Source: a virus
Lineage: Duplodnaviria > Heunggongvirae > Uroviricota > Caudoviricetes
Virus record (IMG/VR): IMGVR_UViG_3300011202_000010
Coordinates: 114,589-178,588 of that record
DNA length: 64,000 nucleotides
Reading direction: 5' to 3' (one strand)
Below, one piece after another: positions 4,258-62,386 of the stretch. Position numbers and translations under genes: made by a program. Positions within the stretch are counted from its first letter, which is position 1. Every line of letters starts with the position of its first letter. The notes below the pieces were generated by a model that saw only the letters and a list, made by a program, of their open reading frames with translations, was not told where the DNA came from and did no database searches.

Positions 4258-4286
4258 ATTATAACAAAAACACACATCATGCACAA
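4258..4286 (-). promoter_or_regulatory. Promoter, TTGTGCAT -35, 17-nt spacer, TATAAT -10
   Basis: Minus strand reads TTGTGCATGATGTGTGTTTTTGTTATAATGGCA. Drives 3777-4226. Confidence 0.55.
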
Positions 4287-4316
4287 GTTTAAAAATCCAT
4301 CCTTGGATTGTTTTTC

Positions 4317-5810
4317 TTACATTAGATGGATGTTATTTTCAATCTCTTTCAACTTATCTAATGTTTGCTGTCTAGCAGCGATAGCTTTATCTTTTTCTTC
4401 ATAGAAAACTGAATAATAACTATTTTCTGAAAACATTTTTACAAGGTGTTTAAATGCTTCATACCAATCTTTATTCAATGTTTTTTCAACTTGTTCTATG
4501 CTAAGAAATTCTGGCTGATAAACAATTTTATGTGATGGCTTTTTATTGATACGACTATCTTCTTCTTTTTTTAAAGTTTTTAAATATTCAATATCGCTAT
4601 ATTCAAAACAACCTTTTTCGCTCTTATAATCAGCGCCACCACCTAAAGTTAGGAAGGTGCGCATAAGGAAACTTAACTCATTCATGCCATATTTAGTATA
4701 GAAATAGTCTCTTTGATATTCATAGCTATAAATATCTTTATCGTATTTAACTTCTTCTAACCCTTCATTTCTCATAGCTTCTACTGAATATCGGATGTCT
4801 AACTTAAATACATACATCAATGAACTATCAGAAGCATAAATCACTTTACCATCTTTAACATCAAGCACTGTATGTTCAAAAAATCCATCTTTTTTACCAT
4901 TAAGATAAGTATTTAACTTTATCATTTCATCTTCAACAGAACTATATTCAGTATGTAGGAAATAAACAGTGAAATTATTGTCATCGTTTCCTTCAAAATA
5001 AAAAGTACAGTTTTGATCATTAATAAATAAATTATTATCCTGAACCCATACATGATTATCTAAATCATTAAACTCAAATTTGTTTTCTTTTGTAAACCCA
5101 TGCACATCACACATTTTTTTCAAATAGTTTTTCTTAACGATCCAATCACTCAGATATTCGGCGTTGATTTTAGTTGGTTCGTCAGCTAAAGATAAATAAA
5201 AATCATGAGAATACTCTTTCATATCAACATATTTAGCTAACAATTTGTTATAACTTAAGATAGCATCAATACTTGAACTTGTAAGTAAAGCATTAGCAAG
5301 AAAATCATCACTATTATTTTTTGTATATTCAATAACTTGCTTAACTTTTTTTATCATTTCTTGATTATTTTCTGCTTCAAATCTTTCCAGCATAATATTA
5401 AATTGTTCAAGAATATCTTCTACACTATGATCTTGTTTGAAAAGATTAATAGTCATTACTTTTTCAAAAGAATAAATCTCATCCTTCTTTTCTTTCATAC
5501 ATTGAAGACCATAATAAAGATGCTCAAGATCTTTTTTATCTTTTTCAAAATCATGAATCATTTCCCAATATACATTGAGCACTTTTCCTTTTTTCTCAAA
5601 AATATAAAAATAGTCATTTTCAGGGAGACGAATATATTTTACTTCCCTAATTTCATCTTTATGAAGTGGGAATAATAGATGATCCGATTCAAAAAATTTA
5701 ATCGTTGCTTTTTTTACATCTTCACAGAAATCTTTATTTTTATTAATGGCTGTTTCTGTATAGTTAACTTTGTTCATCAGGACTCCTTTTAGATTATAAA
5801 ATATTGACAC
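4317..5810 (-). CDS. Family-A paralogue 3, hypothetical (497 aa)
   Basis: Motifs FEFNDLDNHVWVQDNNLFINDQNCTFYFEGNDDNNFTVYFLHT and SYEYQRDYFYTKYG. Confidence 0.65.
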   Translation of the reverse strand: MSIFYNLKGVLMNKVNYTETAINKNKDFCEDVKKATIKFFESDHLLFPLHKDEIREVKYIRLPENDYFYIFEKKGKVLNVYWEMIHDFEKDKKDLEHLYYGLQCMKEKKDEIYSFEKVMTINLFKQDHSVEDILEQFNIMLERFEAENNQEMIKKVKQVIEYTKNNSDDFLANALLTSSSIDAILSYNKLLAKYVDMKEYSHDFYLSLADEPTKINAEYLSDWIVKKNYLKKMCDVHGFTKENKFEFNDLDNHVWVQDNNLFINDQNCTFYFEGNDDNNFTVYFLHTEYSSVEDEMIKLNTYLNGKKDGFFEHTVLDVKDGKVIYASDSSLMYVFKLDIRYSVEAMRNEGLEEVKYDKDIYSYEYQRDYFYTKYGMNELSFLMRTFLTLGGGADYKSEKGCFEYSDIEYLKTLKKEEDSRINKKPSHKIVYQPEFLSIEQVEKTLNKDWYEAFKHLVKMFSENSYYSVFYEEKDKAIAARQQTLDKLKEIENNIHLM

Positions 5811-5958
5811 ATTATAACAGTTTTAAAAATGTTTTACTATATTTTTTTGTAACTATAACCGATTGATTTTAAAGATAATTTAAAAGCGTAAAAATTATAT
5901 TTAACTAGCTTTTCTATGCGAAAATATGGTAAAATACTTAAAACAATAGGAGAAAAAG

Positions 5959-6510
5959 ATGATAAATATTAAATTAATTTGCTCTCATTTAATTACGGTT
6001 GGTACTGTAGAAATGTTTGAAAAAGCACCTGATTGGGCAACTCATCTTGTTAGCTTTAATGGAAGTAAATATTTTACAGATACAGCCAATCCCGAACCTC
6101 TTACTCGTTATTCTAAAGCTGCTCATCCTTATAATGAAGGACACTTTAATGAGCATATGTTTAAGTCAAAACATAAATTTATTGTTGAAGCAGCTAGGAT
6201 TAATCAAAAACAAGATTCTTGGGATGGCGAAGGAAGACCTCAAGTTGGTCAAGTTTGTGTTTTAGATTCTGATATCAACGTTGTCATTCTTGGGAAAACT
6301 AAAGATATTTTCAATAGAACAGTTTACACTGTTCAGGATGTAGATAGTCATGAAATTTTCATCGCTCGCTCTGATGAGTTTATGCCTTATTATTCTGATA
6401 GTGATTTAAAAGATCGTGAAGTTCTTATAGGCATTTCTAATATTCTTAGAAAAAGTATTGATGATGAACAAGTTTTGAAAATGTTTAGACTTTTTAAGGA
6501 AAATTCTTGA
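5959..6510 (+). CDS. Hypothetical protein (183 aa)
   Basis: AGGAG SD before the ATG. Bidirectional terminator at 6572-6594. Confidence 0.55.
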   Translation: MINIKLICSHLITVGTVEMFEKAPDWATHLVSFNGSKYFTDTANPEPLTRYSKAAHPYNEGHFNEHMFKSKHKFIVEAARINQKQDSWDGEGRPQVGQVCVLDSDINVVILGKTKDIFNRTVYTVQDVDSHEIFIARSDEFMPYYSDSDLKDREVLIGISNILRKSIDDEQVLKMFRLFKENS

Positions 6511-6571
6511 TGACGGCTCCATGAGCCTGTTACTACTACTATTAATGTTTTCCTTTTATTAAATATAAAAA

Positions 6572-6594
6572 AAGCGGCTGGGCCGCTTTTTTAT
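6572..6594. terminator. Bidirectional intrinsic terminator
   Basis: Hairpin GCGGCTGGGCCGC with an A-run before and a T-run after. Confidence 0.6.
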
Positions 6595-6742
6595 TTAATT
6601 TTTTTACTTATTATTATTTTTTATTTCATCTTCTTTTTTACTTTCTTTTAAAAAATGATCATATAATCCAGAGCAATCTTCATTTCGCTGGGAATGTAAA
6701 CCAATCATTGGAAAATCCTCATTTTTCATTTTTTCATCCTCT

Positions 6743-9140: not shown

Positions 9141-9878
9141 TTGAAAACTGTCAAACTATATCACGATGATTGCTTAAAAATCATGGAAACTATTCCAACA
9201 GCAAGCGTTGATCTTATTTTATGTGATTTACCCTATGGAACAACTCAAAATGAATGGGACACTATAATTCCTTTTGATTTATTATGGGAACAATATATGC
9301 GTATTAGTAAAGGTGCTATCGTTCTCTTTGCAGCGCAACCTTTCACATCGCTTCTTATAAGCTCCAACTTAAAATACTTTAAATATGATTGGGTATGGGA
9401 AAAAACAAAGGCTACAGGCCATTTAAACGCTAAAAAACAGCCTTTACGAAATAAAGAAGATATTCTTGTATTTTATAAAAAACAACCTACCTATAATCCT
9501 CAAATGAGTAAAGGTGAACCTTATAAAAATAAAACAGGAAAAGATATTAATGGTTCGTCATCCATGACAGCATCTTATGGTAAATATACCAATAAAAGAA
9601 ATGAAAATACGGGTTTTAGATATCCAAAACAAATACTTAAATTTAACACTGTTCAAAGAAATACATTACACCCTACTGAAAAACCCGTTCCATTATTAGA
9701 ATATCTTATTAAAACTTATACTAATAAAGGGGATTTGGTTCTTGATAACTGCATGGGTTCTGGTAGCACTGGTGAAGCGGCTGTTAATCTTGATAGACAT
9801 TTTATTGGGATAGAACAAGAACTTAAGTTTTTTACTAAAGCTTTAATAAGAATAGATAATGCAAGATTAAAAAAATAA
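9141..9878 (+). CDS. N6-adenine DNA methyltransferase, beta-class (DPPY before FxGxG)
   Basis: LILCDLPYG (DPPY motif IV), HPTEKP, and C-terminal DNCMGSGSTGEAA (motif I). TTG start with AAGGAA SD. Confidence 0.8.
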   Translation: MKTVKLYHDDCLKIMETIPTASVDLILCDLPYGTTQNEWDTIIPFDLLWEQYMRISKGAIVLFAAQPFTSLLISSNLKYFKYDWVWEKTKATGHLNAKKQPLRNKEDILVFYKKQPTYNPQMSKGEPYKNKTGKDINGSSSMTASYGKYTNKRNENTGFRYPKQILKFNTVQRNTLHPTEKPVPLLEYLIKTYTNKGDLVLDNCMGSGSTGEAAVNLDRHFIGIEQELKFFTKALIRIDNARLKK

Positions 9879-14034: not shown

Positions 14035-14065
14035 TTTATCTATCCATCATATTTTTATTGTACTC

Positions 14066-14094
14066 ATTATATAACAGATAGTAGTCATGCACAA
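14066..14094 (-). promoter_or_regulatory. Promoter TTGTGCAT-N-TATAAT (17-nt spacer)
   Basis: TTGTGCATGACTACTATCTGTTATATAAT; drives 13744-14034. Confidence 0.55.
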
Positions 14095-22054: not shown

Positions 22055-22115
22055 TTTATCACCTTTTGATTTAATTTAATGACATTATTTTATATTATTC
22101 ACTTATCAAGTACAA

Positions 22116-27156: not shown

Positions 27157-27663
27157 TTAAATTGTGTATACTACTTCATTTTTATCCAAAAAATGCATTA
27201 ACTCAACTTTTGTTGTTCCAGCAAAATTATTTGTCAAAAAACGAGACACTGTTTTTTCGTCAATCACTACGGCACAAAGCCCTTGCATTTCTTCTTCTGA
27301 ATGCTGCCCTTTTTCAAACCATGTTCCCATGATATATCTGACTTCGTTTTGTGGGAGCTTCAGAATAAAACTATCAATTTCTTGACCTTTAGCTGATGTG
27401 GTACTAATAAAAGGCTTTATCTCACTTTTATAAGGTGTTAGATCATATCCAATTTCTTCTTTCACTTCACGAATAACAGCATCAAATGAAGATTCGCTAT
27501 CCTTAGCCACACCACCAATAAATCCATATCCACCATTCCAACGTGAACTCATTAGCACTCTAAGTTTTTCAGTGGAAAAACCTTCACAATACATTAAAAT
27601 GAAACCAGCCTTATTCATTATTTCTTTATTTCCTAATATCTTATAATAGAGGTTATTCCACAT
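27157..27663 (-). CDS. Nudix hydrolase
   Basis: Nudix box GVAKDSE-SSFDAVI-REVKEEIGY fits Gx5Ex7REVxEExGY. Confidence 0.75.
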   Translation of the reverse strand: MWNNLYYKILGNKEIMNKAGFILMYCEGFSTEKLRVLMSSRWNGGYGFIGGVAKDSESSFDAVIREVKEEIGYDLTPYKSEIKPFISTTSAKGQEIDSFILKLPQNEVRYIMGTWFEKGQHSEEEMQGLCAVVIDEKTVSRFLTNNFAGTTKVELMHFLDKNEVVYTI

Positions 27664-27696
27664 AACCTCTTCTTAATGCACAAGTATTAAATATAC

Positions 27697-28596: not shown

Positions 28597-28621
28597 TATA
28601 CTCCTTTTAAAATATGTTGTC

Positions 28622-28650
28622 ATTATACATTGTTTTTTTATGATGCACAA
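28622..28650 (-). promoter_or_regulatory. Promoter TTGTGCAT-N-TATAAT (17-nt spacer)
   Basis: TTGTGCATCATAAAAAAACAATGTATAATGACAACA; drives 27697-28596. Confidence 0.55.
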
Positions 28651-36307: not shown

Positions 36308-36349
36308 TTTTTAGATCCTGTTAAGTAGGTTGTTTGTTTCTATGAAGCT

Positions 36350-36378
36350 ATTATACTACCTTCTTTTATCATGCACAA
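36350..36378 (-). promoter_or_regulatory. Promoter TTGTGCAT-N-TATAAT (17-nt spacer)
   Basis: TTGTGCATGATAAAAGAAGGTAGTATAAT; drives 35999-36307. Confidence 0.55.
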
Positions 36379-51476: not shown

Positions 51477-51504
51477 TTTATGTCTCCAAAAGGTTTATGA
51501 AGCT

Positions 51505-51533
51505 ATTATACTATGATGTTTTGTTATGCACAA
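51505..51533 (-). promoter_or_regulatory. Promoter TTGTGCAT-N-TATAAT (17-nt spacer)
   Basis: TTGTGCATAACAAAACATCATAGTATAAT; drives 51282-51476. Confidence 0.55.
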
Positions 51534-52077: not shown

Positions 52078-52111
52078 TTTGATTACCTCACTATGCAAAT
52101 TTTATAAGATC

Positions 52112-52140
52112 AGTATAGCAGGAATAGATATAATGCACAA
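52112..52140 (-). promoter_or_regulatory. Promoter TTGTGCAT-N-TATACT (17-nt spacer)
   Basis: TTGTGCATTATATCTATTCCTGCTATACT; drives 51826-52077. Confidence 0.5.
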
Positions 52141-52538: not shown

Positions 52539-52550
52539 ATATACCCCTCT

Positions 52551-52679: not shown

Positions 52680-52710
52680 ATAAAAAAGCCTCCGAAGAGG
52701 CTTCTATTAT
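52680..52710. terminator. Intrinsic terminator
   Basis: AGCCTCCGAAGAGGCT hairpin with an A-run before and T-rich sequence after. Confidence 0.55.
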
Positions 52711-54593: not shown

Positions 54594-54729
54594 ACTTTCT
54601 CCTTTAAAATTTAGTTAAATATACCATAAAGACCTTTTAATGAAAACCTTTTTTTATTCATATATTATGTTGATTTTCATTACTAATTTTATCTATAATG
54701 TAGATATCTTTCATTTCATAAGGAAACAT

Positions 54730-55098
54730 ATGTCTAGACCTTATAGAGCAGTAAGTTTTAGAGGCTTAAAAATTGTTGCCTATGGCAATAAACCTATGTC
54801 TATTAATGACAGTCCGATGTTTGTTGACGGGGAATATGTTGACAATAATTTAAATATCTATGACTCATATGTAGATAGGCATGGTTCAAGTAGAGTAAGA
54901 TGTTATAGCTCTTGGTCTCAAGCAGAATCTGTAGCAGATTCATGGAATGATGCCTATGAAGAAAACGAAAGGGAAGAACGCATTAAACAAGAGCAGCGAA
55001 GAAAAGCTTATGAAGCAGCAAAAGCTGAAAGAAAACGAAAAATCAAAGCTTTTATTTCAAAGATTAGGAATATATTTAAGAATAAAAGAGCGGCCTAA
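54730..55098 (+). CDS. Hypothetical protein (122 aa from MSRPYRAV), basic KR-rich C-terminus
   Basis: AAGGAAACAT-ATG SD. Terminator at 55084-55110. Confidence 0.5.
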   Translation: MSRPYRAVSFRGLKIVAYGNKPMSINDSPMFVDGEYVDNNLNIYDSYVDRHGSSRVRCYSSWSQAESVADSWNDAYEENEREERIKQEQRRKAYEAAKAERKRKIKAFISKIRNIFKNKRAA

Positions 55099-55110
55099 CC
55101 GCTCTTTTAT
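55084..55110. terminator. Bidirectional intrinsic terminator
   Basis: AGAGCGGCCTAACCGCTCT hairpin. Confidence 0.6.
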
Positions 55111-55114
55111 TAAT

Positions 55115-55297
55115 TTAATAATTATCTATATCTATCCATTCATCAATTAAAATTTGAGTTGTATTACTATCAAATCCTTTTCCTGACATAGAATATTGGG
55201 GACTACTTACCAAATCTAGATCTATATTTTCATCTTGTTTTTTAGATTTTATGTTGCAGGACGAACCTGCCTCACACTCTCCCCATAAATCAATCAT
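55115..55297 (-). CDS. Small acidic hypothetical protein (60 aa)
   Basis: ORF only. Confidence 0.3.
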   Translation of the reverse strand: MIDLWGECEAGSSCNIKSKKQDENIDLDLVSSPQYSMSGKGFDSNTTQILIDEWIDIDNY

Positions 55298-55422
55298 ATG
55301 AATCTCCTATTTTAAGATTATAGATATTTTATCTTTATAGCTTTTTATAATCAACAAAAATATTTAAAATTTGCCTAACAACTTTTGTATGTATATATTA
55401 AAAACAAAAACGGAGGGATTTT

Positions 55423-56376
55423 ATGTTTAATCTTACAGATATATTACAAATCATGGATAATCGTAGCAGAGAGTTTGAAGGTCTTAGAGAAGATCAGGTA
55501 TTTATGTTTGATGCTTCTGCAGAAGAAATTATTAACAGGATGAAAAAGAGAACATTATTTGGATTAAAGAAACCAGCACTATTGGATTTTAACGTAAAAA
55601 CCAATAGTGGATTTACTCCTTTTATGAAAACAGATGAACTTGAAAAAATTAAACTTTTTATTGAGAATGATGCCAATATCAACTCACTTGATATGAATGG
55701 TGAAAATGCTTTATTTCATCATACCCACAGTATTGATAATACTTCTTATTTATTAGAAAAAGGTATAAATGTTAATCAAAGTAATAAGAATAGAAAAAAT
55801 ATTTTAGATAAACATCACTTTACTTTTGATGATGATGAAAGAATAGCTGAACTTTATGTAAAATACGGAATAGATATTCATAGAGTTAATTCTAAAACTC
55901 AAAGAAATGCACTATTTACATTAGATTATAAAAAAGGCTTATTTCTGGTTAAACATGGTATAAATATTCATCAAGTAGATAAGCATGGAAGAAATATGCT
56001 TTTTTATTTAGACAGCAATGATAAAGATGGAAGTCTAGAATTAATGAATACTCTCATTGAAAAAGGTATAAATGTTAATCAGGTAGATGAATGTGGACGA
56101 AATGCTTTATTTGGTGCTGGTGCTGATTTAGAAAAAGCTAAATTACTTATAGCAGCAGGTATAAATATTCATCAGATTGATAACGAAGGTAAAAGTGCTC
56201 TAGAATATACGTATTGGGATGATAATGAAAGATTGTTATTTTCACATGGCATAAAAGATAGAGAATATGATGAAACGTTTACTAAAGCTAAAATGGCTCC
56301 ATTTATGAGAGGTCATAGGTCTGGTAATTATGAGAAGCTTTTTCATCAAGAACCCAAACTTAGTTTTAACTATTAA
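55423..56376 (+). CDS. Ankyrin-repeat protein (317 aa, about 6 repeats)
   Basis: ACGGAGGG SD. Repeated G-x-NALF-x(n)-LIEKGINVNQ units, e.g. GRNALFGAGADLEKAKLLIAAGINIHQIDNEGKSALEY. Confidence 0.6.
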   Translation: MFNLTDILQIMDNRSREFEGLREDQVFMFDASAEEIINRMKKRTLFGLKKPALLDFNVKTNSGFTPFMKTDELEKIKLFIENDANINSLDMNGENALFHHTHSIDNTSYLLEKGINVNQSNKNRKNILDKHHFTFDDDERIAELYVKYGIDIHRVNSKTQRNALFTLDYKKGLFLVKHGINIHQVDKHGRNMLFYLDSNDKDGSLELMNTLIEKGINVNQVDECGRNALFGAGADLEKAKLLIAAGINIHQIDNEGKSALEYTYWDDNERLLFSHGIKDREYDETFTKAKMAPFMRGHRSGNYEKLFHQEPKLSFNY

Positions 56377-56381
56377 ATAAA

Positions 56382-56457
56382 TGGTGCATTCGGTAGGATT
56401 TGAACCTACGACACCCGGATCTTCAATCCAGTGCTCTACCAACTGAGCTACAAATGC
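56382..56457 (-). tRNA. tRNA-Phe (anticodon GAA), 76 nt with encoded CCA
   Basis: Cloverleaf read by hand: acceptor GCATTTG/CGAATGC, anticodon stem CTGGA/TCCGG with loop TTGAAGA, T-arm GTAGGTTCAAATCCTAC. Confidence 0.8.
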
Positions 56458-56591
56458 ATTAGGCTTACTAGGTCAGGTGTTGTATCGGCCCACCTCTTAA
56501 ACGATAATAGGAAAGTCTGGTTTTTCTCCAAACGTGCTATTACCTTTTACGCCCACTCTTAGTCATCGGGCGCGACCTAATAAGTTTCATG

Positions 56592-56667
56592 TGGTTTCTG
56601 TAGGACTTGAACCTACACTCATAGCGGAACCCTGCCGCTACTGCTCTACCAATTGAGCCAAGAAACC
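56592..56667 (-). tRNA. Atypical tRNA or tRNA-like; nominal anticodon GGG (Pro) but non-canonical loop
   Basis: Perfect acceptor GGTTTCT/AGAAACC and T-arm GTAGGTTCAAGTCCTAC. The anticodon hairpin AGCGG-CAGGGTT-CCGCT has A33 and U37. Three extra nt between the D and anticodon stems. No encoded CCA. Confidence 0.45.
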
Positions 56668-56742
56668 AAAATATCTTATAACATCTTCTTTGTTAACGAG
56701 ATAAAGATAATAACAATATTTTTTATGATAAACAACTCTTTT

Positions 56743-57303
56743 TTAATAAAAAGAGAAAGAAATCGTTGAGCTTACACCAGCAGAATTACATGCTGTAGCA
56801 GCATTCGCTATATTCCAATCTATATTCGATATATCGCTTTTCACTATGCTTCCGCCAATATTGATTATTGACATACTTGGAGCAACTGCAGCAACAAGTT
56901 TTACGCAAGCATCTTGAGGGACATTCGCATAACCTATATTAAATACAACCTTTCCATATGAAGCATAGTTAGTTGCTGATAGAGTTACTTTACCTTTAAA
57001 ACCATTAACAACATCTACTACAGAGCTTCCACTCTTCACTAACATATTATCAGGAAATATTTGTGCATTGATTCCTACTGTATTGTTAACCGTTGTTATA
57101 TCTGTTGTTGCTGAATATAATGATAACAAGCCTCCCCTTATTGTAGCTATGTTTTTAGATTCAGCATCCACTATTTGAGAGGTTCTTACTTTGGGATAAA
57201 CTATAAAAGCGGCAACAATTAAAGCAGCTATTATACCTAAAACAAGCAATAACTCTAATAATGAAAAACCCTTTCTTCTTTTTATTTCTGAAATCTTACT
57301 CAT
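56743..57303 (-). CDS. Type IV pilin-like protein (186 aa)
   Basis: MSKISEIKRRKGFSLLELLLVLGIIAALIVAAFIVYPKV. Paralogue of 23255-23821. Confidence 0.8.
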   Translation of the reverse strand: MSKISEIKRRKGFSLLELLLVLGIIAALIVAAFIVYPKVRTSQIVDAESKNIATIRGGLLSLYSATTDITTVNNTVGINAQIFPDNMLVKSGSSVVDVVNGFKGKVTLSATNYASYGKVVFNIGYANVPQDACVKLVAAVAPSMSIINIGGSIVKSDISNIDWNIANAATACNSAGVSSTISFSFY

Positions 57304-57526
57304 ATTATTTAGCGCTCCTTATTATTAATTTTAGTAACAGTTAAGTTACAAAGTTACAACAATAAGGAAATAATAAAAGTTTTATGCCAACAAAAAATTG
57401 TTTCTGGATGTTTTTTGACATTTTTTGATCAAAAATAAATTTTATAGATCATTTCACCTTTTATATATGTATACTTAAAATACATTTTTATTTGTGGTAT
57501 AATGTATGTTTTATTGAGAGGCCAAA

Positions 57527-57766
57527 ATGAGAAATATACAAATCAAAAAACAAGATTTTAAACATACATCAATTTTACATTATCTGTTAGATAAAGGTGT
57601 TATTGTTAATTTTCATTGTCTCGATGGATTTTGTGGAACTTGCCATAGCAAATTAATTTCTGGTGAGGTTTTATTCATTAAAGACGAAATTGGTTTTAAA
57701 GCTAAAGAAGAGTTTTTACTTTGTTGTGCCGTTCCTAAAACAGATATTGAGATATCTATTTACTAA
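57527..57766 (+). CDS. YfaE-like [2Fe-2S] ferredoxin (79 aa)
   Basis: CLDGFCGTC (CxxGxCGxC), ...LCCAVPKTDIEISIY. Collinear with E. coli YfaE (CREGYCGSC ... PCCCRAKGDIEIEM). Confidence 0.65.
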   Translation: MRNIQIKKQDFKHTSILHYLLDKGVIVNFHCLDGFCGTCHSKLISGEVLFIKDEIGFKAKEEFLLCCAVPKTDIEISIY

Positions 57767-57770
57767 TTTT

Positions 57771-57845
57771 TGGTGTCCCGTGCAGGAATCGAACCTGCAA
57801 CTACTTCTTAGGAGGAAGTCGTTATATCCATTTAACTAACAGGAC
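57771..57845 (-). tRNA. tRNA-Arg (anticodon CCU), 75 nt with CCA
   Basis: Acceptor GTCCTGT/ACGGGAC, anticodon stem ACTTC/GAAGT with loop CTCCTAA, T-arm GCAGGTTCGATTCCTGC. Confidence 0.7.
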
Positions 57846-57877
57846 ATTAGCACCAATCTCTTGATGCTATTTTGTTT

Positions 57878-58198
57878 TTATTTGATAAATACACACTCTG
57901 ATTTATCAACTTTAGCAAAGATCATGGATGTAGCTTCTGGAACCATTGTTAACTCAACCAGATCGCCCATAACATCAAGAACAATAACGGACTTGAAATC
58001 AACCGCATTAATATTGCTACTTAAGTTGATTTGAGATAAAACATCAGTAATCTTCTGACTTTCTTCCCTTAGATCGTCATCATTACTATCATTCGCATCT
58101 TCTGTTCGAGAAACATATGCCGATTGAACAGCCGTTGTAAAAAAGTTTTTAAAAAAATGAGTAAGTTTTTCGTTATGAATTAATTTCTGAACCATCAT
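57878..58198 (-). CDS. Hypothetical protein (106 aa)
   Basis: ORF overlapping the upstream gene by 4 nt. Confidence 0.5.
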   Translation of the reverse strand: MMVQKLIHNEKLTHFFKNFFTTAVQSAYVSRTEDANDSNDDDLREESQKITDVLSQINLSSNINAVDFKSVIVLDVMGDLVELTMVPEATSMIFAKVDKSECVFIK

Positions 58199-58590
58199 GC
58201 TTTACTCCCACTTTTAGTTTGAGATTCTTTCCATTCTTTATATTGTAACTCAATGATGCTAAGACCACGCTCAAAAGTATCTTTCATATGATTAATAACT
58301 TCTTCTGGAATATCTGCCTTTTTCATACTGGCAATAAAAGAATCGTTATGCTTTTTGATTTCAATAATATCATCACTTGAAGCCATAATGCTTTGACTTA
58401 CTTCAAAAGATTCTGTTTTATTAGTGTTATAGAAATTCATAACTTTAACAGCCATCCAAGACATAAAGCCAGCATGGTTATAACCGATATTACGACATAA
58501 CATACCTGAAACATAATCATCTTTTCTACGTTTAATCTGATCAACAACATTTGATTCAACGTTAATGCTTGTGATTTCAATAGTATTCAT
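58195..58590 (-). CDS. Hypothetical protein (131 aa)
   Basis: ORF. TTGTGC-N17-TATAAT promoter at 58622-58650. Confidence 0.55.
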   Translation of the reverse strand: MNTIEITSINVESNVVDQIKRRKDDYVSGMLCRNIGYNHAGFMSWMAVKVMNFYNTNKTESFEVSQSIMASSDDIIEIKKHNDSFIASMKKADIPEEVINHMKDTFERGLSIIELQYKEWKESQTKSGSKA

Positions 58591-58621
58591 AATAAAGGTT
58601 CTCTCATTAAGTTAGGTTGTC

Positions 58622-58650
58622 ATTATAACAATTTATTCAGTTATGCACAA
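58622..58650 (-). promoter_or_regulatory. Promoter TTGTGCAT-N-TATAAT (17-nt spacer, TGT-extended -10)
   Basis: TTGTGCATAACTGAATAAATTGTTATAATGACAAC; drives 58195-58590. Confidence 0.55.
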
Positions 58651-58656
58651 GCTTTT

Positions 58657-59049
58657 TTAGATAATTTTGTTCTGACGTAGTTCCTTGAACACGTTGTTAA
58701 CCATTTCTTGTTTGTTTTTGAGTTCTTTATTATAGTATTTTTCATAATCGCTTTCTTCATGACCAACCAGACCGATTTTTTCTAATGAAGAAAGATAATT
58801 ACTACAGTATCCTAATACTTTTTTAAAGGTGATAGAATCTTGCTTAGAAAAAGAAATATCTTCACCATTGACTTTTTTGATTAGATTTTCAAAAAGAGTT
58901 CCTGTTTTTTCGGATTTTTCATTTGCTTTACGAATTTCTTCTTTAGCAAGATCTTCAGGGAAAATAACAGATACATCAATCTTATGCTTTTCAATGTTAT
59001 GAGCATAAAGAGTTTTCATCAGATTTAAGCCTTCAATAACATTTTTCAT
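58657..59049 (-). CDS. Hypothetical protein (130 aa from MKNVIEGL)
   Basis: Upstream cassette TATAAT ... AAAAAAAGAGGTTTTTAAA-ATG is identical to the one before 59097-59498. Confidence 0.5.
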   Translation of the reverse strand: MKNVIEGLNLMKTLYAHNIEKHKIDVSVIFPEDLAKEEIRKANEKSEKTGTLFENLIKKVNGEDISFSKQDSITFKKVLGYCSNYLSSLEKIGLVGHEESDYEKYYNKELKNKQEMVNNVFKELRQNKII

Positions 59050-59096
59050 TTTAAAAACCTCTTTTTTTAGAGCCTTTATTATACAACAAAGCATTC

Positions 59097-59498
59097 TTAA
59101 TGTGTAGAGAAAGGTACTTTTTTTATAGAAATAGTATGAATTGTATTAGAAAAGAAGCCAGCCTGATAAAATTTAAAGGCTATTTCTGGTGAAATAATTT
59201 TACTATATGAACCAGCATTACTGTAATGACACTTAAAATACTTTTTCAAGTTCTTCTCTAAATGTTTACATTGATCTCTAATCATCATTTCTTTAGACAT
59301 TTGATGGGAAGAGAGAAATACCATTAAGATGGTAGTTAAAATATGACCAATTTTACCAATAAAAGAGGCTTTTTTGAAAAGTCGTTTTTTGAAAGCTTTG
59401 TCTTCAGCATAAGATTGATTTTCTCTAATAATACACATAAGAAATTCTTTCGCTACGAGGTTGTTCTGGTGAACTTGTTGAATGGTCAGAATACTCAT
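59097..59498 (-). CDS. Hypothetical protein (133 aa), one predicted TM helix
   Basis: Same promoter/RBS cassette (TGCTATAATGACAAC ... AAAAAAAGAGGTTTTTAAA-ATG). Confidence 0.5.
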   Translation of the reverse strand: MSILTIQQVHQNNLVAKEFLMCIIRENQSYAEDKAFKKRLFKKASFIGKIGHILTTILMVFLSSHQMSKEMMIRDQCKHLEKNLKKYFKCHYSNAGSYSKIISPEIAFKFYQAGFFSNTIHTISIKKVPFSTH

Positions 59499-59589
59499 TT
59501 TAAAAACCTCTTTTTTTACTTAATGTTGTCATTATAGCAAAAAGCCTTCTTTGAAGAAAGCTTTTTGTTTAGAGATTTTTACTTAGTTT

Positions 59590-59799
59590 TTAATGCATCA
59601 CCATCATACCGACTGTATGGCAAATACAAGTACAAAGTTTTATCTTTTGAAGATTTTTTCTTATTACTTTATTTTGAGGTTCATCAACTAAAACTTTATA
59701 TTTACCTTCACCATATATTTCATCAAGCCCCTCTTTATTTAAACTTCCATCTACGTTTAGATACTTTCTGTAACATAAATCACAACATGCCATTACCAT
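59590..59799 (-). CDS. Small Cys-rich protein (69 aa); paralogue of 59810-60148
   Basis: MVMACCDLCYRKYLN...CTCICHTVGMMVMH: 7 Cys plus His, shared N- and C-terminal Cys motifs. Confidence 0.55.
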   Translation of the reverse strand: MVMACCDLCYRKYLNVDGSLNKEGLDEIYGEGKYKVLVDEPQNKVIRKNLQKIKLCTCICHTVGMMVMH

Positions 59800-59809
59800 T
59801 ATAATCTCC

Positions 59810-60148
59810 TTAATGAAGGACTGTCATGCCAATTATATGACAATCGCAACCACATAATTCTTGTTCTTTATTATCTATTTTAACTTTATATTTATACTCA
59901 AACTCTTTATCAAGTCCTTTTATATTATGGATATATTTACTTCCATTAGGTTTTACACCTCCTTCAACAAAAGAGTAATTATTTTCTCCATATATTTGAT
60001 CCATTATTGCTTTCTTATTGTAAGGTTTTTTCTCAATGATTAATTGATATTTATTTTTACCAAATATTTCGTCTAAACATTTTTTTGATACTTCGCCATC
60101 TTTATTTAAATATTTTTTATAACATAAGTTACAACAAGCCATTACCAT
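59810..60148 (-). CDS. Small Cys-rich protein (112 aa); paralogue of 59590-59799
   Basis: MVMACCNLCYKKYLN...CGCDCHIIGMTVLH. Confidence 0.55.
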   Translation of the reverse strand: MVMACCNLCYKKYLNKDGEVSKKCLDEIFGKNKYQLIIEKKPYNKKAIMDQIYGENNYSFVEGGVKPNGSKYIHNIKGLDKEFEYKYKVKIDNKEQELCGCDCHIIGMTVLH

Positions 60149-60195
60149 GATTATCTCCTCTTTTTGTTTATTATATCTTTAAAAAAATATAAAAA

Positions 60196-60222
60196 CAAAA
60201 AAAGAACCATCTCTGGTTCTTT
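60196..60222 (-). terminator. Intrinsic terminator
   Basis: AGAACCATCTCTGGTTCT hairpin flanked by A and T runs. Confidence 0.55.
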
Positions 60223-60225
60223 TTG

Positions 60226-60300
60226 TGGTGCCTAATGCAGGATTCGAACCCGCGACAAAGAATTTTAGGGACTCCCGTTCTACCGCTGAACTAATTAGGC
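60226..60300 (-). tRNA. tRNA with anticodon CUA (amber-reading/suppressor-type), class I, 75 nt with CCA
   Basis: Perfect acceptor GCCTAAT/ATTAGGC, D-arm GTTC-AGCGGTA-GAAC, anticodon stem GGAGT/ATTCT (two G-U pairs) with loop CCCTAAA (C33 is unusual), T-arm GCGGGTTCGAATCCTGC. Confidence 0.55.
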
Positions 60301-60381
60301 TTTTTAATTAACACCAGTGATCATACCTCAACAGGCGGTACTCAACACATGTCCCCATCCAGAGCCGCACTGGTATTAATT

Positions 60382-60457
60382 TGGTGGCCCTTGTTGGATT
60401 TGAACCAACGACCAATCGATTATGAGTCGACTGCTCTAACCACTGAGCTAAGGGGCC
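60382..60457 (-). tRNA. tRNA-Met (anticodon CAU), 76 nt with CCA
   Basis: Acceptor GGCCCCT/AAGGGCC (one C-A mismatch), anticodon stem GTCGA/TCGAT with loop CTCATAA, T-arm GTTGGTTCAAATCCAAC. Confidence 0.7.
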
Positions 60458-60460
60458 ATT

Positions 60461-60557
60461 CGGCGTACATAGGACTTGAACCTACAATCATCCGGTGGAT
60501 TAACAAGGTAATGAAACCTATACCGTTGGAATCGACTTCTTAAACAGTCGTGATACG
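60461..60557 (-). ncRNA. tRNA-like element, unresolved (about 97 nt)
   Basis: Canonical T-arm GTAGGTTCAAGTCCTAT and a 6-bp acceptor pairing (GCGTAT/GTACGC), but no clean D/anticodon fold and about 10 nt too long for a standard tRNA. Confidence 0.3.
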
Positions 60558-60559
60558 CA

Positions 60560-60646
60560 TGGTGCCTGAAGTGGGATTCGAACCCACAAGCCCTATATGG
60601 GCGGGAGATTTTAAGTCTCCTGTGTATACCATTCCACCATTCAGGC
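60560..60646 (-). tRNA. tRNA-Leu (anticodon UAA), class II with long variable arm, 87 nt with CCA
   Basis: Acceptor GCCTGAA/TTCAGGC, anticodon stem GGAGA/TCTCC with loop CTTAAAA, variable hairpin GCCC-ATATA-GGGC, T-arm GTGGGTTCGAATCCCAC. Confidence 0.75.
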
Positions 60647-60737
60647 ATAAAAGAGTGGGAGAACACTCTTTAATTAAATGAAAACTTTTAGCAGTACTTT
60701 TATTCACAATCACAACAACGCATATAGGAGACTATGC

Positions 60738-60814
60738 TGGTGGCCCTTGCTGGACTTGAACCAGCGACCAATCGATTATGAGTCGACTGCTCTGACCAAC
60801 TGAGCTAAAGGGCC
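60738..60814 (-). tRNA. tRNA-Met (anticodon CAU), second copy, 77 nt with CCA
   Basis: Acceptor GGCCCTT/AAGGGCC perfect. Anticodon arm identical to the 60382-60457 copy. T-arm GCTGGTTCAAGTCCAGC. Confidence 0.75.
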
Positions 60815-61032
60815 ATCTATTTACTTATTTTACTACTATTTTTTTTACAGTACAAGCTCTTTTTTACTTTATTTTAAAACAAGTTATTGATTTATAAAAC
60901 CTTATCTCGTTTCGATGAATATATAATACCAAATCAGATCTTGAAGTACAACTTTTTTTTCATCTTTTTTGTTTGTTTGATCGCTTTTTAAGCATAAAAT
61001 AAAAAACCACCTCGGAAGATGGCTTTATATTA

Positions 61033-61500
61033 TTATTTTACGAAAATAAGGTCTGATTCTTTGATATCAGCAATCATCGAGCCAGCGGCATATTGGAATT
61101 TAGATACTTGATCTACATATTCTTTTGAGCCATATTGAAGATTTCCAGAGTTTAACAGCGTTCTAGCTTCTTCTTGCTCTTTATACGCTTCCATACGAAG
61201 AGATAAATCATATACACACTCACCAGCATTGTTATGATGCTGACGAACTACGAAAGCTCGCATACCTTCATATTTCTTATTTAGGGGAGCAATATCAAAA
61301 ATTGCAAGCATTTCATCTTTGATTTCACCTACTTCAACTAAACTTCCAATACTAATTTTATGTATTTTTTTAATAGCTTTCGTTTCGGTTGATACTAAAA
61401 TGCCGTTTTCATATTTAGCAGTAATCATGTGTTCCATTTTTAGTCCTATATATGTTTCTTCAGAGAAGTTTATTATGACAACATATACTGTTAATTTCAA
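61033..61500 (-). CDS. Hypothetical protein (155 aa; start may be the internal MEHMITAKY)
   Basis: ORF overlapping the upstream gene by 4 nt. Confidence 0.5.
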   Translation of the reverse strand: MKLTVYVVIINFSEETYIGLKMEHMITAKYENGILVSTETKAIKKIHKISIGSLVEVGEIKDEMLAIFDIAPLNKKYEGMRAFVVRQHHNNAGECVYDLSLRMEAYKEQEEARTLLNSGNLQYGSKEYVDQVSKFQYAAGSMIADIKESDLIFVK

Positions 61501-62318
61501 GCTTTTTCTTCTGACATTAGTTCTTTTATTACTTTTTCAGAAATATCATCATACATATTACTAACTTCTTCTGTTTGCCAAAATGGGCGAAAATCTAACC
61601 CTTTTTGATCAAGAACTTTTGTCATTGCTACAATATAATCCAGATATTCAGGCATATTATAGGCAAATACTTTTTTAAGCTCTGGATTATTTTTTTGTTC
61701 TGGATCAGAGAGCATACGTAAATATTTACGGTTTCCTTCCAAATAATTTTTAGTGGATGTTCCATTAAGTTTCAACTTACGACCAAAACCAAAGGCATAG
61801 CTGTTATGCATTGTGCTTACAATGTTATTTCCCATTTCATGTGGTGCTTCTCCGCCTTTTTTTACTTCGCCATCTTCTGTGTAGAATACAGAAGTATGAT
61901 GATTCATAACTGTTGAATGTGATACATCAACAAAGCCAAAGAAAACATAGGAGTGAAGACCATTAATCAATGAAGGGACTTCAAGAAACATTATTTCTGA
62001 AATAATATCACTGCTGAAAATAGATTTATACAATTGTAATTCATTATTTCCTAAAATACCTTTTAAATCAGAATCGTTTAGGAATGAAAGATTTGGATTA
62101 TTGTAATGATCATAAGATGGTGTTAAAGTAATCTGATCACTGATTTCGATATCTGAAATGCTGTTATCAACATCAGACACTGAAATAGTTAAAGTGCTTT
62201 TAGAATAATTAGGAATAGCTAAAGATGAGGTAAAATGACCTAAAATAGCGGTATTGCGCTGACAAAGCACTGATGGATCAACAAAGAAGAGTTCAACCTG
62301 CTTAGCAATACTTTTCAT
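61497..62318 (-). CDS. Hypothetical protein (273 aa)
   Basis: ORF. Promoter TTGTGC-N17-TAGAAT at 62358-62386. Confidence 0.55.
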   Translation of the reverse strand: MKSIAKQVELFFVDPSVLCQRNTAILGHFTSSLAIPNYSKSTLTISVSDVDNSISDIEISDQITLTPSYDHYNNPNLSFLNDSDLKGILGNNELQLYKSIFSSDIISEIMFLEVPSLINGLHSYVFFGFVDVSHSTVMNHHTSVFYTEDGEVKKGGEAPHEMGNNIVSTMHNSYAFGFGRKLKLNGTSTKNYLEGNRKYLRMLSDPEQKNNPELKKVFAYNMPEYLDYIVAMTKVLDQKGLDFRPFWQTEEVSNMYDDISEKVIKELMSEEKA

Positions 62319-62357
62319 TTTTTAGCCTCATTAATCATATTTGATTTCAATAAAGCT

Positions 62358-62386
62358 ATTCTAGCAGAAAACATAGTTATGCACAA
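62358..62386 (-). promoter_or_regulatory. Promoter TTGTGCAT-N-TAGAAT (17-nt spacer)
   Basis: TTGTGCATAACTATGTTTTCTGCTAGAAT; drives 61497-62318. Confidence 0.5.

What the first reader, a model, noticed from the sequence alone, without database searches (positions are those of the whole stretch)
4258..62386. A single highly conserved promoter (TTGTGCAT, exact 17-nt spacer, TATAAT, often TGTTATAATGACAA) precedes at least nine dispersed minus-strand genes
The plus-strand octamer ATGCACAA recurs 25 to 40 nt upstream of many minus-strand start codons. In every listed case an ATTATA-type hexamer lies exactly 17 nt downstream of it, in transcription direction. The -10 is frequently extended (TGTTATAAT) and followed by GACAA. 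The -35 TTGTGCAT is not the generic sigma70 TTGACA. Such uniformity over 58 kb implies either one dedicated transcription programme, such as a phage early or middle class needing a factor that reads TTGTGCAT, or recent spread of a promoter cassette. The promoter positions also arbitrate start codons, for example favouring MMNTLEQQ at 28596 and MTVAEL at 52077. A second repeated cassette, TATAAT...AAAAAAAGAGGTTTTTAAA-ATG, precedes both 58657-59049 and 59097-59498.
Basis: seen in the sequence. Interest (0 to 1): 0.6.

Follow-up and report, generated by a model that had tools for sequence, protein, structure and literature searches.

The report
Clade-specific promoter class of a jumbo phage
An uncultivated jumbo phage drives many of its accessory genes and tRNAs from an unusually rigid bacterial-type promoter whose upstream half (TTGTGCATnA or TTGTACTTnA) is not the standard -35 box, so some still unidentified host or phage protein must read it.

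Summary
TTGTGCAT is followed by exactly 15 nt and then TATAAT. That equals 17 nt only if the -35 is read as the hexamer TTGTGC. Nine window sites fit, against about 0.04 expected. All are intergenic, on the minus strand, and 22-44 nt upstream of ribosome-binding sites. A tenth octamer (27683) lacks a -10 and is doubtful.

The octamer is the main subtype of a broader promoter:
- A-tract, then S-TTGT-R-C-W-T-n-A at -36 to -26
- 13 nt, often with TGn
- TAtAaT, RRC, then Y and A(+1)

Across 137 kb of this phage and three relatives, TTGTRC sites number 36 on the gene strand (0.8 expected) and 0 on the other strand. Canonical TTGACA is not enriched. GCA-type sites precede protein genes. ACT-type sites mostly precede tRNAs. 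Positions -31 and -29 covary.

The motif survives in a relative with 39% GC and 41-54% protein identity, while the surrounding DNA is unalignable. Spacers and flanks match only at background level, so this is not a copied cassette. An equally distant relative (L157) has ordinary degenerate promoters, so the element is clade-specific.

No sigma, MotA, AsiA or RNA polymerase gene lies in the window. The protein that reads the element remains unidentified.

The parts
62351..62386 (-). GCA-type promoter. 10-mer TTGTGCATAA at 62377-62386, -10 TAGAAT at 62358-62363, predicted +1 at 62351. Drives 61497-62318 (273 aa). An intrinsic terminator (62413-62440) lies just upstream.
   Evidence: Identical in 6 variants. 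The ortholog is kept in L149 (3175) and L153 (2814).
58615..58650 (-). GCA-type promoter. TTGTGCATAA, TGT-TATAAT at 58622-58627, GACAAC, predicted +1 at 58615. Drives 58195-58590 (131 aa) and 57878-58198 (106 aa).
   Evidence: The ortholog in L153 (5126) sits before a 53%-identical 131-aa gene, and only the motif aligns.
52105..52140 (-). GCA-type promoter. TTGTGCATTA, -10 TATACT at 52112-52117, predicted +1 at 52105. Drives 51826-52077 (83 aa, PHROG 14647) and 51536-51772.
   Evidence: In L151 (7110) and L153 (13784) a GCA-type promoter upstream of the orthologous 83/85-aa gene runs first into a ~220-nt nested tRNA-like RNA.
51498..51533 (-). GCA-type promoter. C-TTGTGCATAA, TATAAT at 51505-51510, AGCTTCATA, predicted +1 at 51498. 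Drives 51282-51476 (64 aa).
   Evidence: The ortholog L153 14562 keeps CTTGTGCAT, TATACT and CTTCATA in otherwise unalignable DNA.
43717..43752 (-). GCA-type promoter. TTGTGCATCA, TATAAT at 43724-43729, predicted +1 at 43717. Drives the trypsin-like protease genes 43061-43681 and 42439-43005.
   Evidence: In variant L001 the flanks diverge (88.5% identity) but the octamer and -10 are kept.
36343..36378 (-). GCA-type promoter. TTGTGCATGA, TATAAT at 36350-36355, AGCTTCATA, predicted +1 at 36343. Drives 35999-36307 (102 aa).
   Evidence: The ortholog in L149 (21808) reads TTGTGCAAGA, which shows that -28 tolerates change.
28615..28650 (-). GCA-type promoter. TTGTGCATCA, TATAAT at 28622-28627, GACAAC, predicted +1 at 28615. 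Drives 27697-28596 (299 aa; true start ATG 28596 or 28593).
14059..14094 (-). GCA-type promoter. C-TTGTGCATGA, TATAAT at 14066-14071, predicted +1 at 14059. Drives 13744-14034 (96 aa; weak winged-helix hit, E = 0.004).
4251..4286 (-). GCA-type promoter. C-TTGTGCATGA, TGT-TATAAT at 4258-4263, predicted +1 at 4251. Drives the GNAT acetyltransferase gene 3777-4226 and probably 3595-3765, 2071-3582 and 678-2051.
27648..27683 (-). Doubtful member. TTGTGCATTA is followed by the hairpin AGAGGTTAT..ATAACCTCT and TGGAAT in place of a -10. It lies upstream of the NUDIX gene 27157-27618.
   Evidence: It reads TTGTACAT in variant L001.
60820..60855 (-). ACT-type promoter. TTGTACTGTA, -10 TAAAAT at 60827-60832, predicted +1 at 60820, which is 6 nt before the 5' end of tRNA-Met (60738-60814).
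60916..60951 (-). ACT-type promoter. A-tract, G-TTGTACTTCA, -10 TATTAT at 60923-60928. It lies at the head of the tRNA cluster.
   Evidence: The ortholog is L149 4609.
22080..22115 (-). ACT-type promoter. C-TTGTACTTGA, -10 TAAAAT at 22087-22092, predicted +1 at 22080. Drives 21434-22054 (GmrSD_N-like).
59047..59070 (-). Copy 2 of the shared 24-nt translation-initiation cassette TAAAAAAAGAGGTTTTTAAAATG, ending in the ATG at 59049 (gene 58657-59049).
59496..59519 (-). Copy 1 of the same 24-nt cassette, ending in the ATG at 59498 (gene 59097-59498). It is preceded by TATAATGACAAC (T1 of the -10 at 59536) with no TTGTRC element.

Best explanation
These sites are transcription start signals of a clade-specific promoter class in an uncultivated jumbo phage. 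The genome is at least 220 kb and about 29% GC.

Shown by sequence:
- Each site has the full layout of a sigma70-family promoter.
- An A-rich tract lies at about -46 to -38.
- A rigid 11-bp element, S-TTGT-R-C-W-T-n-A, lies at -36 to -26.
- The hexamer-to-hexamer spacer is almost always exactly 17 bp, often with TGn.
- The -10 is TAtAaT, followed by an RRC discriminator and a pyrimidine/A start 7 nt after the -10.
- The sites head co-directional transcription units that end at intrinsic terminators.
- Two covarying subtypes exist. TTGTGCA(T) serves accessory protein genes: GNAT acetyltransferase, proteases and small ORFans. TTGTACT(T) serves mostly tRNA genes.

Inferred mechanism:
- A bacterial multisubunit RNA polymerase, meaning the host core enzyme, initiates here. 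A sigma70-type region 2 reads the -10.
- The TTG at -35 to -33 is contacted as in a normal -35.
- The extra invariant bases down to -26 are read by a specificity protein that is not the standard host sigma region 4. The likeliest candidate is a phage-encoded sigma with altered region 4. The alternative is a phage activator or co-factor that sits at -32 to -26 beside sigma.
- The class would therefore be a dedicated, probably post-immediate-early, programme.
- The opposite-strand host-like genes and a few canonical promoters (for example TTGACT-N17-TATAAT at 49340-49368) would be read by unmodified host holoenzyme.
For: It is a real, selected promoter.
- 9 composite sites in the window against 0.04 expected.
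- 36 TTGTRC...A-N13-TAnnnT sites on the gene strand against 0.8 expected, and 0 on the other strand, in 137 kb of family sequence.
- 0 sites in 288 kb of distant phage and MAG loci.
- The spacer is 17 bp in 27 of 29 sites and never 16.
- Without selecting for it, -26 is A in 36 of 38 sites and -36 is C or G in 31 of 38.
- A Y(-1)/A(+1) signature is present.
- The predicted +1 lies 2 nt before a conserved structured RNA and 6 nt before tRNA-Met.
- Phylogenetic footprint: only the motif aligns between the window and L153, where proteins are 41-54% identical and GC is 39%.
- Flanks are at background identity.
- Intrinsic terminators number 21 against 6.3 expected, which points to a bacterial-type RNA polymerase.

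A non-standard reader is involved.
- TTGTGC matches TTGACA at only 3 of 6 positions, and canonical TTGACA is not enriched.
- Conservation runs to -26, beyond the -35 hexamer.
- The class is all-or-none, with almost no degenerate cloud.
- -31 and -29 covary strictly (GA 23, AT 10, AA 1, GT 0), and the subtypes partition by target type.
- Opposite-strand genes never use the element.
- An equally distant relative, L157, has ordinary degenerate TTGCAT, TTGAAT or TTGTAA-N17-TATAAT promoters, so the element is a clade-specific innovation.
- 65 kb of candidate host-lineage chromosome holds none.
Against: - No sigma, MotA, AsiA or RNA polymerase domain was found in any window protein or in the genes annotated on the fetched flanks. 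Only about 80 kb of a genome of at least 220 kb could be read.
- The host is unidentified. A host primary sigma with an unusual -35 preference cannot be excluded.
- Every element of a strong host-only promoter is present: UP-like A-tract, TTG, 17-bp spacer, TGn and TATAAT. T4 early promoters likewise carry consensus beyond the canonical boxes (PMC2988021).
- The region looks like an early or accessory region, which fits host-only transcription.
- No transcript data exist.
Confidence: 0.5

Rival explanations
1. Host-only 'uber' early promoters. Unmodified host sigmaA/sigma70 holoenzyme reads the whole signal immediately after infection. The unusual, extended -35 side reflects the particular preferences of an unstudied host's sigma region 4 and alpha-CTD. 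The rigidity reflects selection for maximal strength, as in T4 and T5 early promoters.
For: - The architecture is complete and optimal: A-tract at -46 to -38 (5.3-5.5 A of 9 against 3.4 expected), an obligatory TTG (36 of 36), a 17-bp spacer, TGn in about half the sites, and a near-consensus -10.
- The sites lie in a co-directional block of small ORFans, host-takeover-type enzymes and tRNAs, within about 5 kb of a contig end.
- No phage transcription factor was found in 64 kb.
- T4 early promoters are described as UP/-35/TGn/-10 promoters with additional consensus regions (PMC2988021).
Against: - Positions -32 to -30 (T-R-C) contradict the near-universal ACA.
- Canonical TTGACA is not enriched.
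- Invariance extends to -26.
- Two covarying subtypes partition by target.
- Opposite-strand genes, which also need host polymerase, never use the element.
- Relative L157 uses ordinary degenerate -35s.
- 65 kb of candidate host-lineage chromosome holds none, though this is weak evidence because the sample is small and the host assignment uncertain.
Confidence: 0.3
2. A host-type promoter with an overlapping operator. Host holoenzyme uses the TTG, TGn, -10 and A-tract. The bases T-R-C-W-T-n-A at -32 to -26 are the binding site of a phage repressor, or a class II-type activator, that switches the whole set off or on together. The two subtypes would be sites of different affinity, or sites for two paralogous regulators.
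For: - The conserved 7 bp beyond TTG lie where a protein would block or touch sigma region 4.
- The class is all-or-none and the subtypes covary.
- One promoter drives a 96-aa protein with a weak winged-helix hit (HTH_45, E = 0.004), which could be an autoregulator.
Against: - The element is not palindromic, and no second half-site is conserved.
- The winged-helix hit is below the Pfam threshold, the structure model was unusable (pLDDT 46), and no PDB relative was found.
- Nothing links any protein to the site.
Confidence: 0.12
3. T4-type sigma appropriation. An AsiA-like protein remodels sigma region 4, and a MotA-like activator binds the 10-mer at -35 to -26, replacing -35 recognition.
For: - The footprint and register match. 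The MotA box (a/t)(a/t)(a/t)TGCTTtA occupies -35 to -26 when it lies 13 bp from the -10 (PMC2988021). Here TTGTGCATnA and TTGTACTTnA lie 13 bp from the -10.
- 7 to 8 of 10 positions agree.
- ACTT is a natural T4 variant centre (P46; PMC2988021).
- T4 middle promoters also serve tRNAs (PMC2988021).
Against: - TTG at -35 to -33 is obligatory here, whereas the MotA box needs only A/T there and AsiA removes sigma from the -35.
- MotA tolerates deviations (PMC2988021), whereas this class is rigid.
- The spacer is fixed, whereas the MotA box sits 12 +/- 1 bp from the -10.
- No MotA or AsiA Pfam hit occurs in the window.
- Nothing else suggests a T4-like phage.
Confidence: 0.05
4. A recently spread promoter cassette or mobile element. 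The sites are similar because they are recent copies.
For: A few pairs share longer runs. Sites 36378 and 51533 share TAGTATAATAGCTTCATA. Sites 43752 and 28650 share TTGTGCATCATAAAAAA.
Against: - Mean pairwise identity in spacers and flanks is 0.30-0.34 against 0.29 for random sequence.
- Orthologous sites persist in relatives whose proteins are only 41-54% identical.
- No repeat boundaries are present.
Confidence: 0.02

Closest known systems
Bacteriophage T4 early promoters (the 'uber' UP/-35/TGn/-10 class; PMC2988021)
   Same: - A phage-specific, highly conserved sigma70-architecture promoter class with a UP-like A-tract, TGn, a near-consensus -10 and consensus beyond the canonical boxes.
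- It drives early and accessory genes and competes for bacterial RNA polymerase.
   Different: - T4 early promoters carry an excellent match to the host -35. Here -32 to -30 is T-R-C, canonical TTGACA is not enriched, and conservation runs to -26.
- There are two covarying subtypes.
- The host and the timing of expression are unknown.
Bacteriophage T4 middle promoters (MotA box with a sigma70 -10; MotA/AsiA sigma appropriation; PMC2988021, PMC6755090)
   Same: - A 10-bp phage-specific element occupies -35 to -26, 13 bp upstream of a normal -10.
- The sequence is similar in register: wwwTGCTTtA against TTGTGCATnA and TTGTACTTnA.
- The class also serves tRNA genes and coexists with a separate host-type class.
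   Different: - TTG is obligatory here, and the spacing and sequence are rigid, whereas MotA boxes are tolerant and sit 12 +/- 1 bp from the -10.
- A UP-like tract is present.
- No MotA or AsiA homolog was found in the accessible sequence.
- The phage is not T4-like.
Phage-encoded sigma factors that define promoter classes (e.g. Bacillus phage SPO1 gp28 and gp33/34; from my own knowledge, not tested here)
   Same: One rigid promoter consensus recurs across a large phage genome and is distinct from the host consensus on at least one half.
   Different: - The SPO1 middle and late consensus differs from the host in both the -35 and the -10. Here the -10 is the housekeeping TATAAT and only the upstream half is unusual.
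- No sigma gene has been identified.

Membership tests
Sigma70-family (-35/-10) bacterial promoter | A -10 hexamer close to TATAAT, with A at position 2 and T at position 6 | tested here: met
   T(-12), A(-11), A(-9) and T(-7) are present in 17 of 17 octamer-selected sites, where the -10 was not part of the selection. The window's nine sites are TATAAT (7), TAGAAT (1) and TATACT (1).
Sigma70-family (-35/-10) bacterial promoter | An upstream hexamer starting with TTG, 16-18 bp (optimum 17) from the -10 | tested here: met
   TTG is present in 36 of 36 sites when anchoring on -32 to -26 alone. The spacer is 17 bp in 27 of 29 sites and 18 bp in 2.
Sigma70-family (-35/-10) bacterial promoter | A -35 hexamer matching TTGACA (at least 4 of 6) | tested here: not met
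   TTGTGC and TTGTAC match TTGACA at 3 of 6 positions. The generic scanner misses every site. TTGACA at this register: 0 observed against 1.2 expected.
Sigma70-family (-35/-10) bacterial promoter | Transcription starts 6-8 nt downstream of the -10 | not testable with these tools
   Support is indirect only: a Y(-1)/A(+1) signature, and the 5' ends of a structured RNA and of tRNA-Met lying 2 and 6 nt after the predicted +1. There are no transcript data.
T4 MotA-dependent middle promoter | A MotA box (a/t)(a/t)(a/t)TGCTTtA centred at -30, 12 +/- 1 bp from the -10, replacing the -35 element | tested here: inconclusive
   The position (-35 to -26, 13 bp from the -10) fits, and 7 to 8 of 10 bases match. 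However, the first three bases are an invariant TTG, so a -35-like contact is kept rather than replaced.
T4 MotA-dependent middle promoter | The phage encodes MotA (MotA_activ/MotCF) and AsiA | tested here: not met
   No such Pfam hit occurs in any window protein. This covers only the window and about 15 kb of flanks; the rest of the genome could not be fetched.
T4-type early ('uber') promoter | UP-element-like A/T tract, good -35, TGn and -10, active with unmodified host RNA polymerase | tested here: inconclusive
   The A-tract is enriched, TGn occurs in about 10 of 17 sites and the -10 is near consensus. The -35 is non-canonical. Dependence on host polymerase alone cannot be tested here.
Repeated mobile promoter cassette | Similarity extends through the spacers and flanks of the copies | tested here: not met
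   Spacers and flanks show 0.30-0.34 identity against 0.29 for random sequence.

The most novel reading that the evidence does not exclude
This clade of jumbo phages carries its own promoter-specificity system. The factor would be a sigma70-like protein, or a partner of sigma region 4, that keeps TTG and TATAAT recognition but adds base-specific reading of -32 to -26. It would come in two flavours, GCA and ACT, that separately programme accessory mRNAs and tRNAs. That would be a mode of polymerase redirection intermediate between plain host-promoter mimicry (T4 early) and full sigma appropriation (T4 middle).
Probability: 0.35. Interest if true: 0.75.

Novelty: new variant of a known kind. Interest (0 to 1): 0.55.

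Why it matters
- **Transcription map without RNA data.** The motif gives a ready-made transcription map for an uncultivated jumbo phage of at least 220 kb. It covers unit starts, true start codons and tRNA promoters.
- **Clade marker.** The motif is a sharp sequence tag for recognising members of this clade in metagenomes.
- **Possible new mechanism.** The rigid 11-bp upstream element has two covarying subtypes that split by target type. It is absent from an equally distant relative. This suggests a dedicated recognition protein. If that protein is phage-encoded, it would be a new way of retargeting bacterial RNA polymerase and a source of orthogonal promoter/factor pairs.
- **If host sigma alone reads it.** That would reveal a non-canonical -35 preference in an unstudied gut bacterial lineage.

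Tried and rejected
- **Literal pattern (octamer, N17, TATAAT).** It hits none of the sites. The geometry was corrected to N15.
- **Close relatives by protein.** None exist in IMG/VR or GTDB genomes; the best were 38-43% identical. There is no near DNA match in INPHARED phages. Relatives came only through exact-protein look-ups in Logan and ENA assemblies.
- **Generic sigma70 scanner.** It has no power in 29% GC DNA (109 matches against 112 expected) and misses the class.
- **Host identification.**
  - Sample and assembly accessions were not found in the literature.
  - Cluster names were empty.
  - The MCP is only about 30-33% identical to plasmid copies.
  - Tetranucleotide signatures did not discriminate.
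  - The chromosomal tRNA(CUA) in L156 is unrelated to the phage's.
  - The idea of an ankyrin-rich, CheX-bearing, low-GC bacterium such as Brachyspira is my inference only.
- **Trans-factor search.**
  - Pfam and PHROGs on essentially all window proteins found no sigma, MotA, AsiA or RNA polymerase. The 'Serglycin' hits are artefacts of my GS linkers.
  - PDB sequence searches of three promoter-proximal ORFans found nothing.
  - A single-sequence AlphaFold model of the 96-aa winged-helix candidate had pLDDT 46, so no fold search was run.
- **Literature.** Searches for TTGTGCAT, TTGTGC or TTGTAC together with TATAAT found no described promoter class.
- **Genome walking.** I did not walk further along the genome. 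Each 10-kb step costs a full protein-database search, with a low chance of reaching a regulator.

Full report
**What the window is**

The window is 64 kb at about 29% GC. It is densely coded, mostly on the minus strand, and holds seven tRNA genes. It has no near DNA match among 50,697 deposited phages. Few proteins have Pfam or PHROG hits. Those that match phage families do so at about 30% identity, several of them to jumbo phages.

Exact-protein look-ups place the window in uncultivated metagenome assemblies. One contig of 219,637 bp contains window 52802-64000 and ends about 4.7 kb beyond the window's right edge. The window is therefore part of a jumbo-phage-sized replicon. It consists of accessory genes: GNAT acetyltransferase, NUDIX hydrolase, trypsin-like proteases, M49 peptidase, pilins, an MCP-domain protein, GtrII, a DNA methylase and many ORFans. 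No structural or replication genes were recognised.

**Check of the observation**

- TTGTGCAT occurs 12 times against 2.7 expected, and 10 copies are on the minus strand.
- The pattern as literally written (octamer, 17 nt, TATAAT) matches none of them. The true geometry is octamer, exactly 15 nt, then the -10. That is 17 nt between the hexamers TTGTGC and TATAAT.
- Nine sites fit: seven with TATAAT, one with TAGAAT and one with TATACT. About 0.04 are expected per strand.
- All nine are intergenic and lie upstream of a ribosome-binding site and start codon.
- An unbiased word count ranks (C)TTGTGCAT first among oriented 8-mers in the 7.4 kb of intergenic DNA, with none in the opposite orientation.
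- The tenth minus-strand octamer (27683) is followed by a hairpin and TGGAAT. It reads TTGTACAT in a 96.6%-identical variant. I treat it as doubtful.
- The start-codon inferences hold. For 28596, the long ORF's TTG is the motif's own TTG. For 52077, the RBS and the orthologs agree.
- The 'second cassette' is an exact 24-nt translation-initiation region shared by two non-homologous genes.
- 'Often TGTTATAATGACAA' is overstated: each extension occurs at 2 of 9 sites.

**The motif is larger than an octamer**

I aligned 17 non-redundant octamer sites from the window, its left flank and three relatives. The following positions were not part of the selection:

| Position | Base | Count |
|---|---|---|
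| -36 | C or G | 15 of 17 |
| -27 | mostly purine | G 8, A 6 of 17 |
| -26 | A | 17 of 17 |
| -15 / -14 | T / G | 12 / 10 of 17 |
| -4 | C | 12 of 17 |
| -1 | C or T | 17 of 17 |
| +1 | A | 13 of 17 |
| +2 | T | 13 of 17 |

- The -10 was also not part of the selection and reads TAtAaT.
- An A-tract at about -46 to -38 is enriched.
- This is the full layout of a sigma70-type promoter with a start 7 nt after the -10.
- Two observations support that start site. In L151 and L153 a conserved structured RNA begins 2 nt after the predicted +1. In the window, tRNA-Met begins 6 nt after the predicted +1 of an ACT-type site.
- Intrinsic terminators are enriched (21 against 6.3), which fits a bacterial-type polymerase.

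**The octamer is one subtype of a broader class**

Near-miss sites are not random.

- TTGTGCAA and TTGTGCAG occur at promoter-like positions. One of them is the L149 ortholog of window site 36378.
- TTGTACTT, TTGTACTG and TTGTACAT recur in the same register.

Counts at fixed register with TAnnnT, over 137 kb of family sequence:

| Upstream element | Gene strand observed | Expected | Other strand |
|---|---|---|---|
| TTGTGCATNA | 19 | ~0 | 0 |
| TTGTACTTNA | 8 | 0.13 | 0 |
| TTGTRCNNNA | 36 | 0.8 | 0 |
| TTGACA (canonical) | 0 | 1.2 | 0 |

- GCA-type sites (24) precede protein genes, plus the structured RNA. ACT-type sites (12) mostly precede tRNA genes.
- Positions -31 and -29 covary: GA 23, AT 10, AA 1, GT 0.
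- Anchoring only on -32 to -26 and the -10, the triplet at -35 to -33 is TTG in all 36 real sites.
- The hexamer spacer is 17 in 27 of 29 sites and never 16.
- The window also holds ACT-type sites at 60951, 60855 and 22115.
- A few promoters share the same -10 and discriminator but carry a canonical-looking -35. Examples are TTGACT-N17-TATAAT at 49340-49368 and TTGATT at 51280.

**Conservation and phylogenetic limits**

Relatives were found through homologs of the M49 peptidase.

- L149 (92% M49 identity), L151 (79%) and L153 (73%; 294-kb contig; 39% GC) are syntenic and keep the motif.
- Between the window and L153, the proteins downstream of orthologous promoters are 41-54% identical. The intergenic DNA is unalignable except for C-TTGTGCAT-R-A, the -10 and the start region, all in register.
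- Within the window, spacers and flanks of the nine sites are at background identity (0.30-0.34 against 0.29). The element scores 0.87 and the -10 scores 0.93. This rules out a recently copied cassette.
- 288 kb of distant phage and MAG loci contain no composite site.
- L157 is about as divergent as L153 (shared proteins 53-71% identical). It has ordinary, degenerate promoters: TTGCAT, TTGCAG, TTGAAT or TTGTAA, then N17 and TATAAT. The rigid element is therefore clade-specific.
- M49 homologs of 68% identity or less lie on apparently bacterial chromosomes rich in ankyrin-repeat genes, with CheX. Their 65 kb contains no site. The sample is small, and these bacteria are only candidates for the host lineage.

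**Mechanism**

What is shown is a selected, strand-specific promoter class with sigma70 architecture and a non-canonical, extended upstream element in two covarying subtypes. What reads the upstream element is inferred.

I favour a dedicated specificity protein (confidence 0.5): a phage sigma with altered region 4, or a factor beside sigma at -32 to -26. The reasons are:
- the deviation from ACA at -32 to -30;
- the lack of enrichment for TTGACA;
- invariance out to -26;
- the all-or-none character of the class;
- the partition of subtypes by target;
- non-use by opposite-strand genes;
- absence from L157.

The main rival (0.3) is host holoenzyme alone. In that case these would be T4-early-like 'uber' promoters tuned to an unstudied host. 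This fits the optimal architecture, the accessory-gene context and the absence of any transcription-factor gene in the window.

An overlapping operator (0.12) is possible but has no protein attached to it.

Strict T4-type sigma appropriation (0.05) is attractive because of the register and sequence resemblance to the MotA box (PMC2988021). The obligatory TTG, the rigidity and the absence of MotA or AsiA argue against it.

**Limits**

- Only about 80 kb of a genome of at least 220 kb could be read, because the tools return at most 10 kb around proteins of the window.
- The host is unidentified.
- There are no transcript data.
- The structure model of the one weak DNA-binding candidate was unusable.

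Noticed in passing
window 60226-60300 (-); also L149 4905-4978, L151 469-543, L143 8401-8475: A tRNA with a CUA anticodon, which would act as an amber suppressor, is conserved across the phage relatives (65-68 of 75 nt identical). TAG is a rare stop codon in the window (3 of 91 genes; TAA 78, TGA 10). This suggests TAG may be recoded in another, possibly late, part of the genome.
   Followed up: partly
L153 13821-14044 and L151 7147-7370 (not present in the window; the window's promoter before the orthologous 83-aa gene is at 52140): A conserved non-coding RNA of about 220 nt starts 2 nt after a predicted promoter +1. An outer acceptor-like stem ends in ACCA, with D- and T-arms, and encloses a second tRNA-like unit. 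RNAalifold finds 61 pairs, 9 of them compensatory between the two sequences. Default ARAGORN and Rfam do not call it. ARAGORN with -i calls a tRNA with a 128-129-nt 'intron' but assigns inconsistent anticodons.
   Followed up: partly
L149 7827-7901 and L153 6875-6951 (the window counterpart is tRNA-Pro GGG at 56591-56667): ARAGORN reports tRNAs with four-base anticodons (aggg, agaa) in relatives. These could act as frameshift suppressors or could be degenerate genes.
   Followed up: no
window 37434-42238 (-): Three tandem paralogous genes (455, 460 and 552 aa) are 68-74% identical at the DNA level and have no family hit. They coincide with a contig break in one metagenome assembly.
   Followed up: partly
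window 23255-23821, 24038-24598, 47241-47786, 48128-48691, 56743-57303: Five type IV pilin-like genes carry the N-terminal GFSLLELLLVLGIIAAL motif. Pfam PilS, Bundlin or N_methyl hits were obtained for those scanned. Some are on the plus strand. This is unusual cargo for a phage.
   Followed up: partly
window 34862-35965 (+), 43821-47043 (+), 55423-56376 (+), 52707-54593 (-): The window carries host-like genes: a protein with a methyl-accepting chemotaxis signalling domain, two GtrII glucosyltransferases, an ankyrin-repeat protein and an M49 dipeptidyl-peptidase. The peptidase is 61-68% identical to copies on bacterial chromosomes rich in ankyrin genes (L154-L156), which hints at the host lineage. 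The plus-strand genes among them never use the TTGTRC promoter.
   Followed up: partly
window 52550-52594: A perfect 13-nt tandem repeat (TGATTTATTCCAA, 3.5 copies) lies in the intergenic region upstream of the 58-aa gene 52362-52538.
   Followed up: no
L140 702-2641 (corresponds to the methylase gene at window 9141-9878): In one natural variant an IS605-family OrfB/TnpB gene (Cas12f1-like_TNB, 538 aa) sits next to a truncated N6/N4 DNA methylase (83 aa). The methylase is intact (245 aa) in the window and in L141.
   Followed up: no
L156 6981-7055: The 1.9-Mb chromosomal contig (GCA_040384245.1) that carries a 61%-identical M49 homolog also encodes a tRNA with a CUA anticodon. It is unrelated in sequence to the phage's (45 of 80 nt identical).
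   Followed up: partly
window 59047-59070 and 59496-59519 (-): An exact 24-nt ribosome-binding and start region (TAAAAAAAGAGGTTTTTAAAATG) is shared by two adjacent genes that are not homologous.
   Followed up: yes
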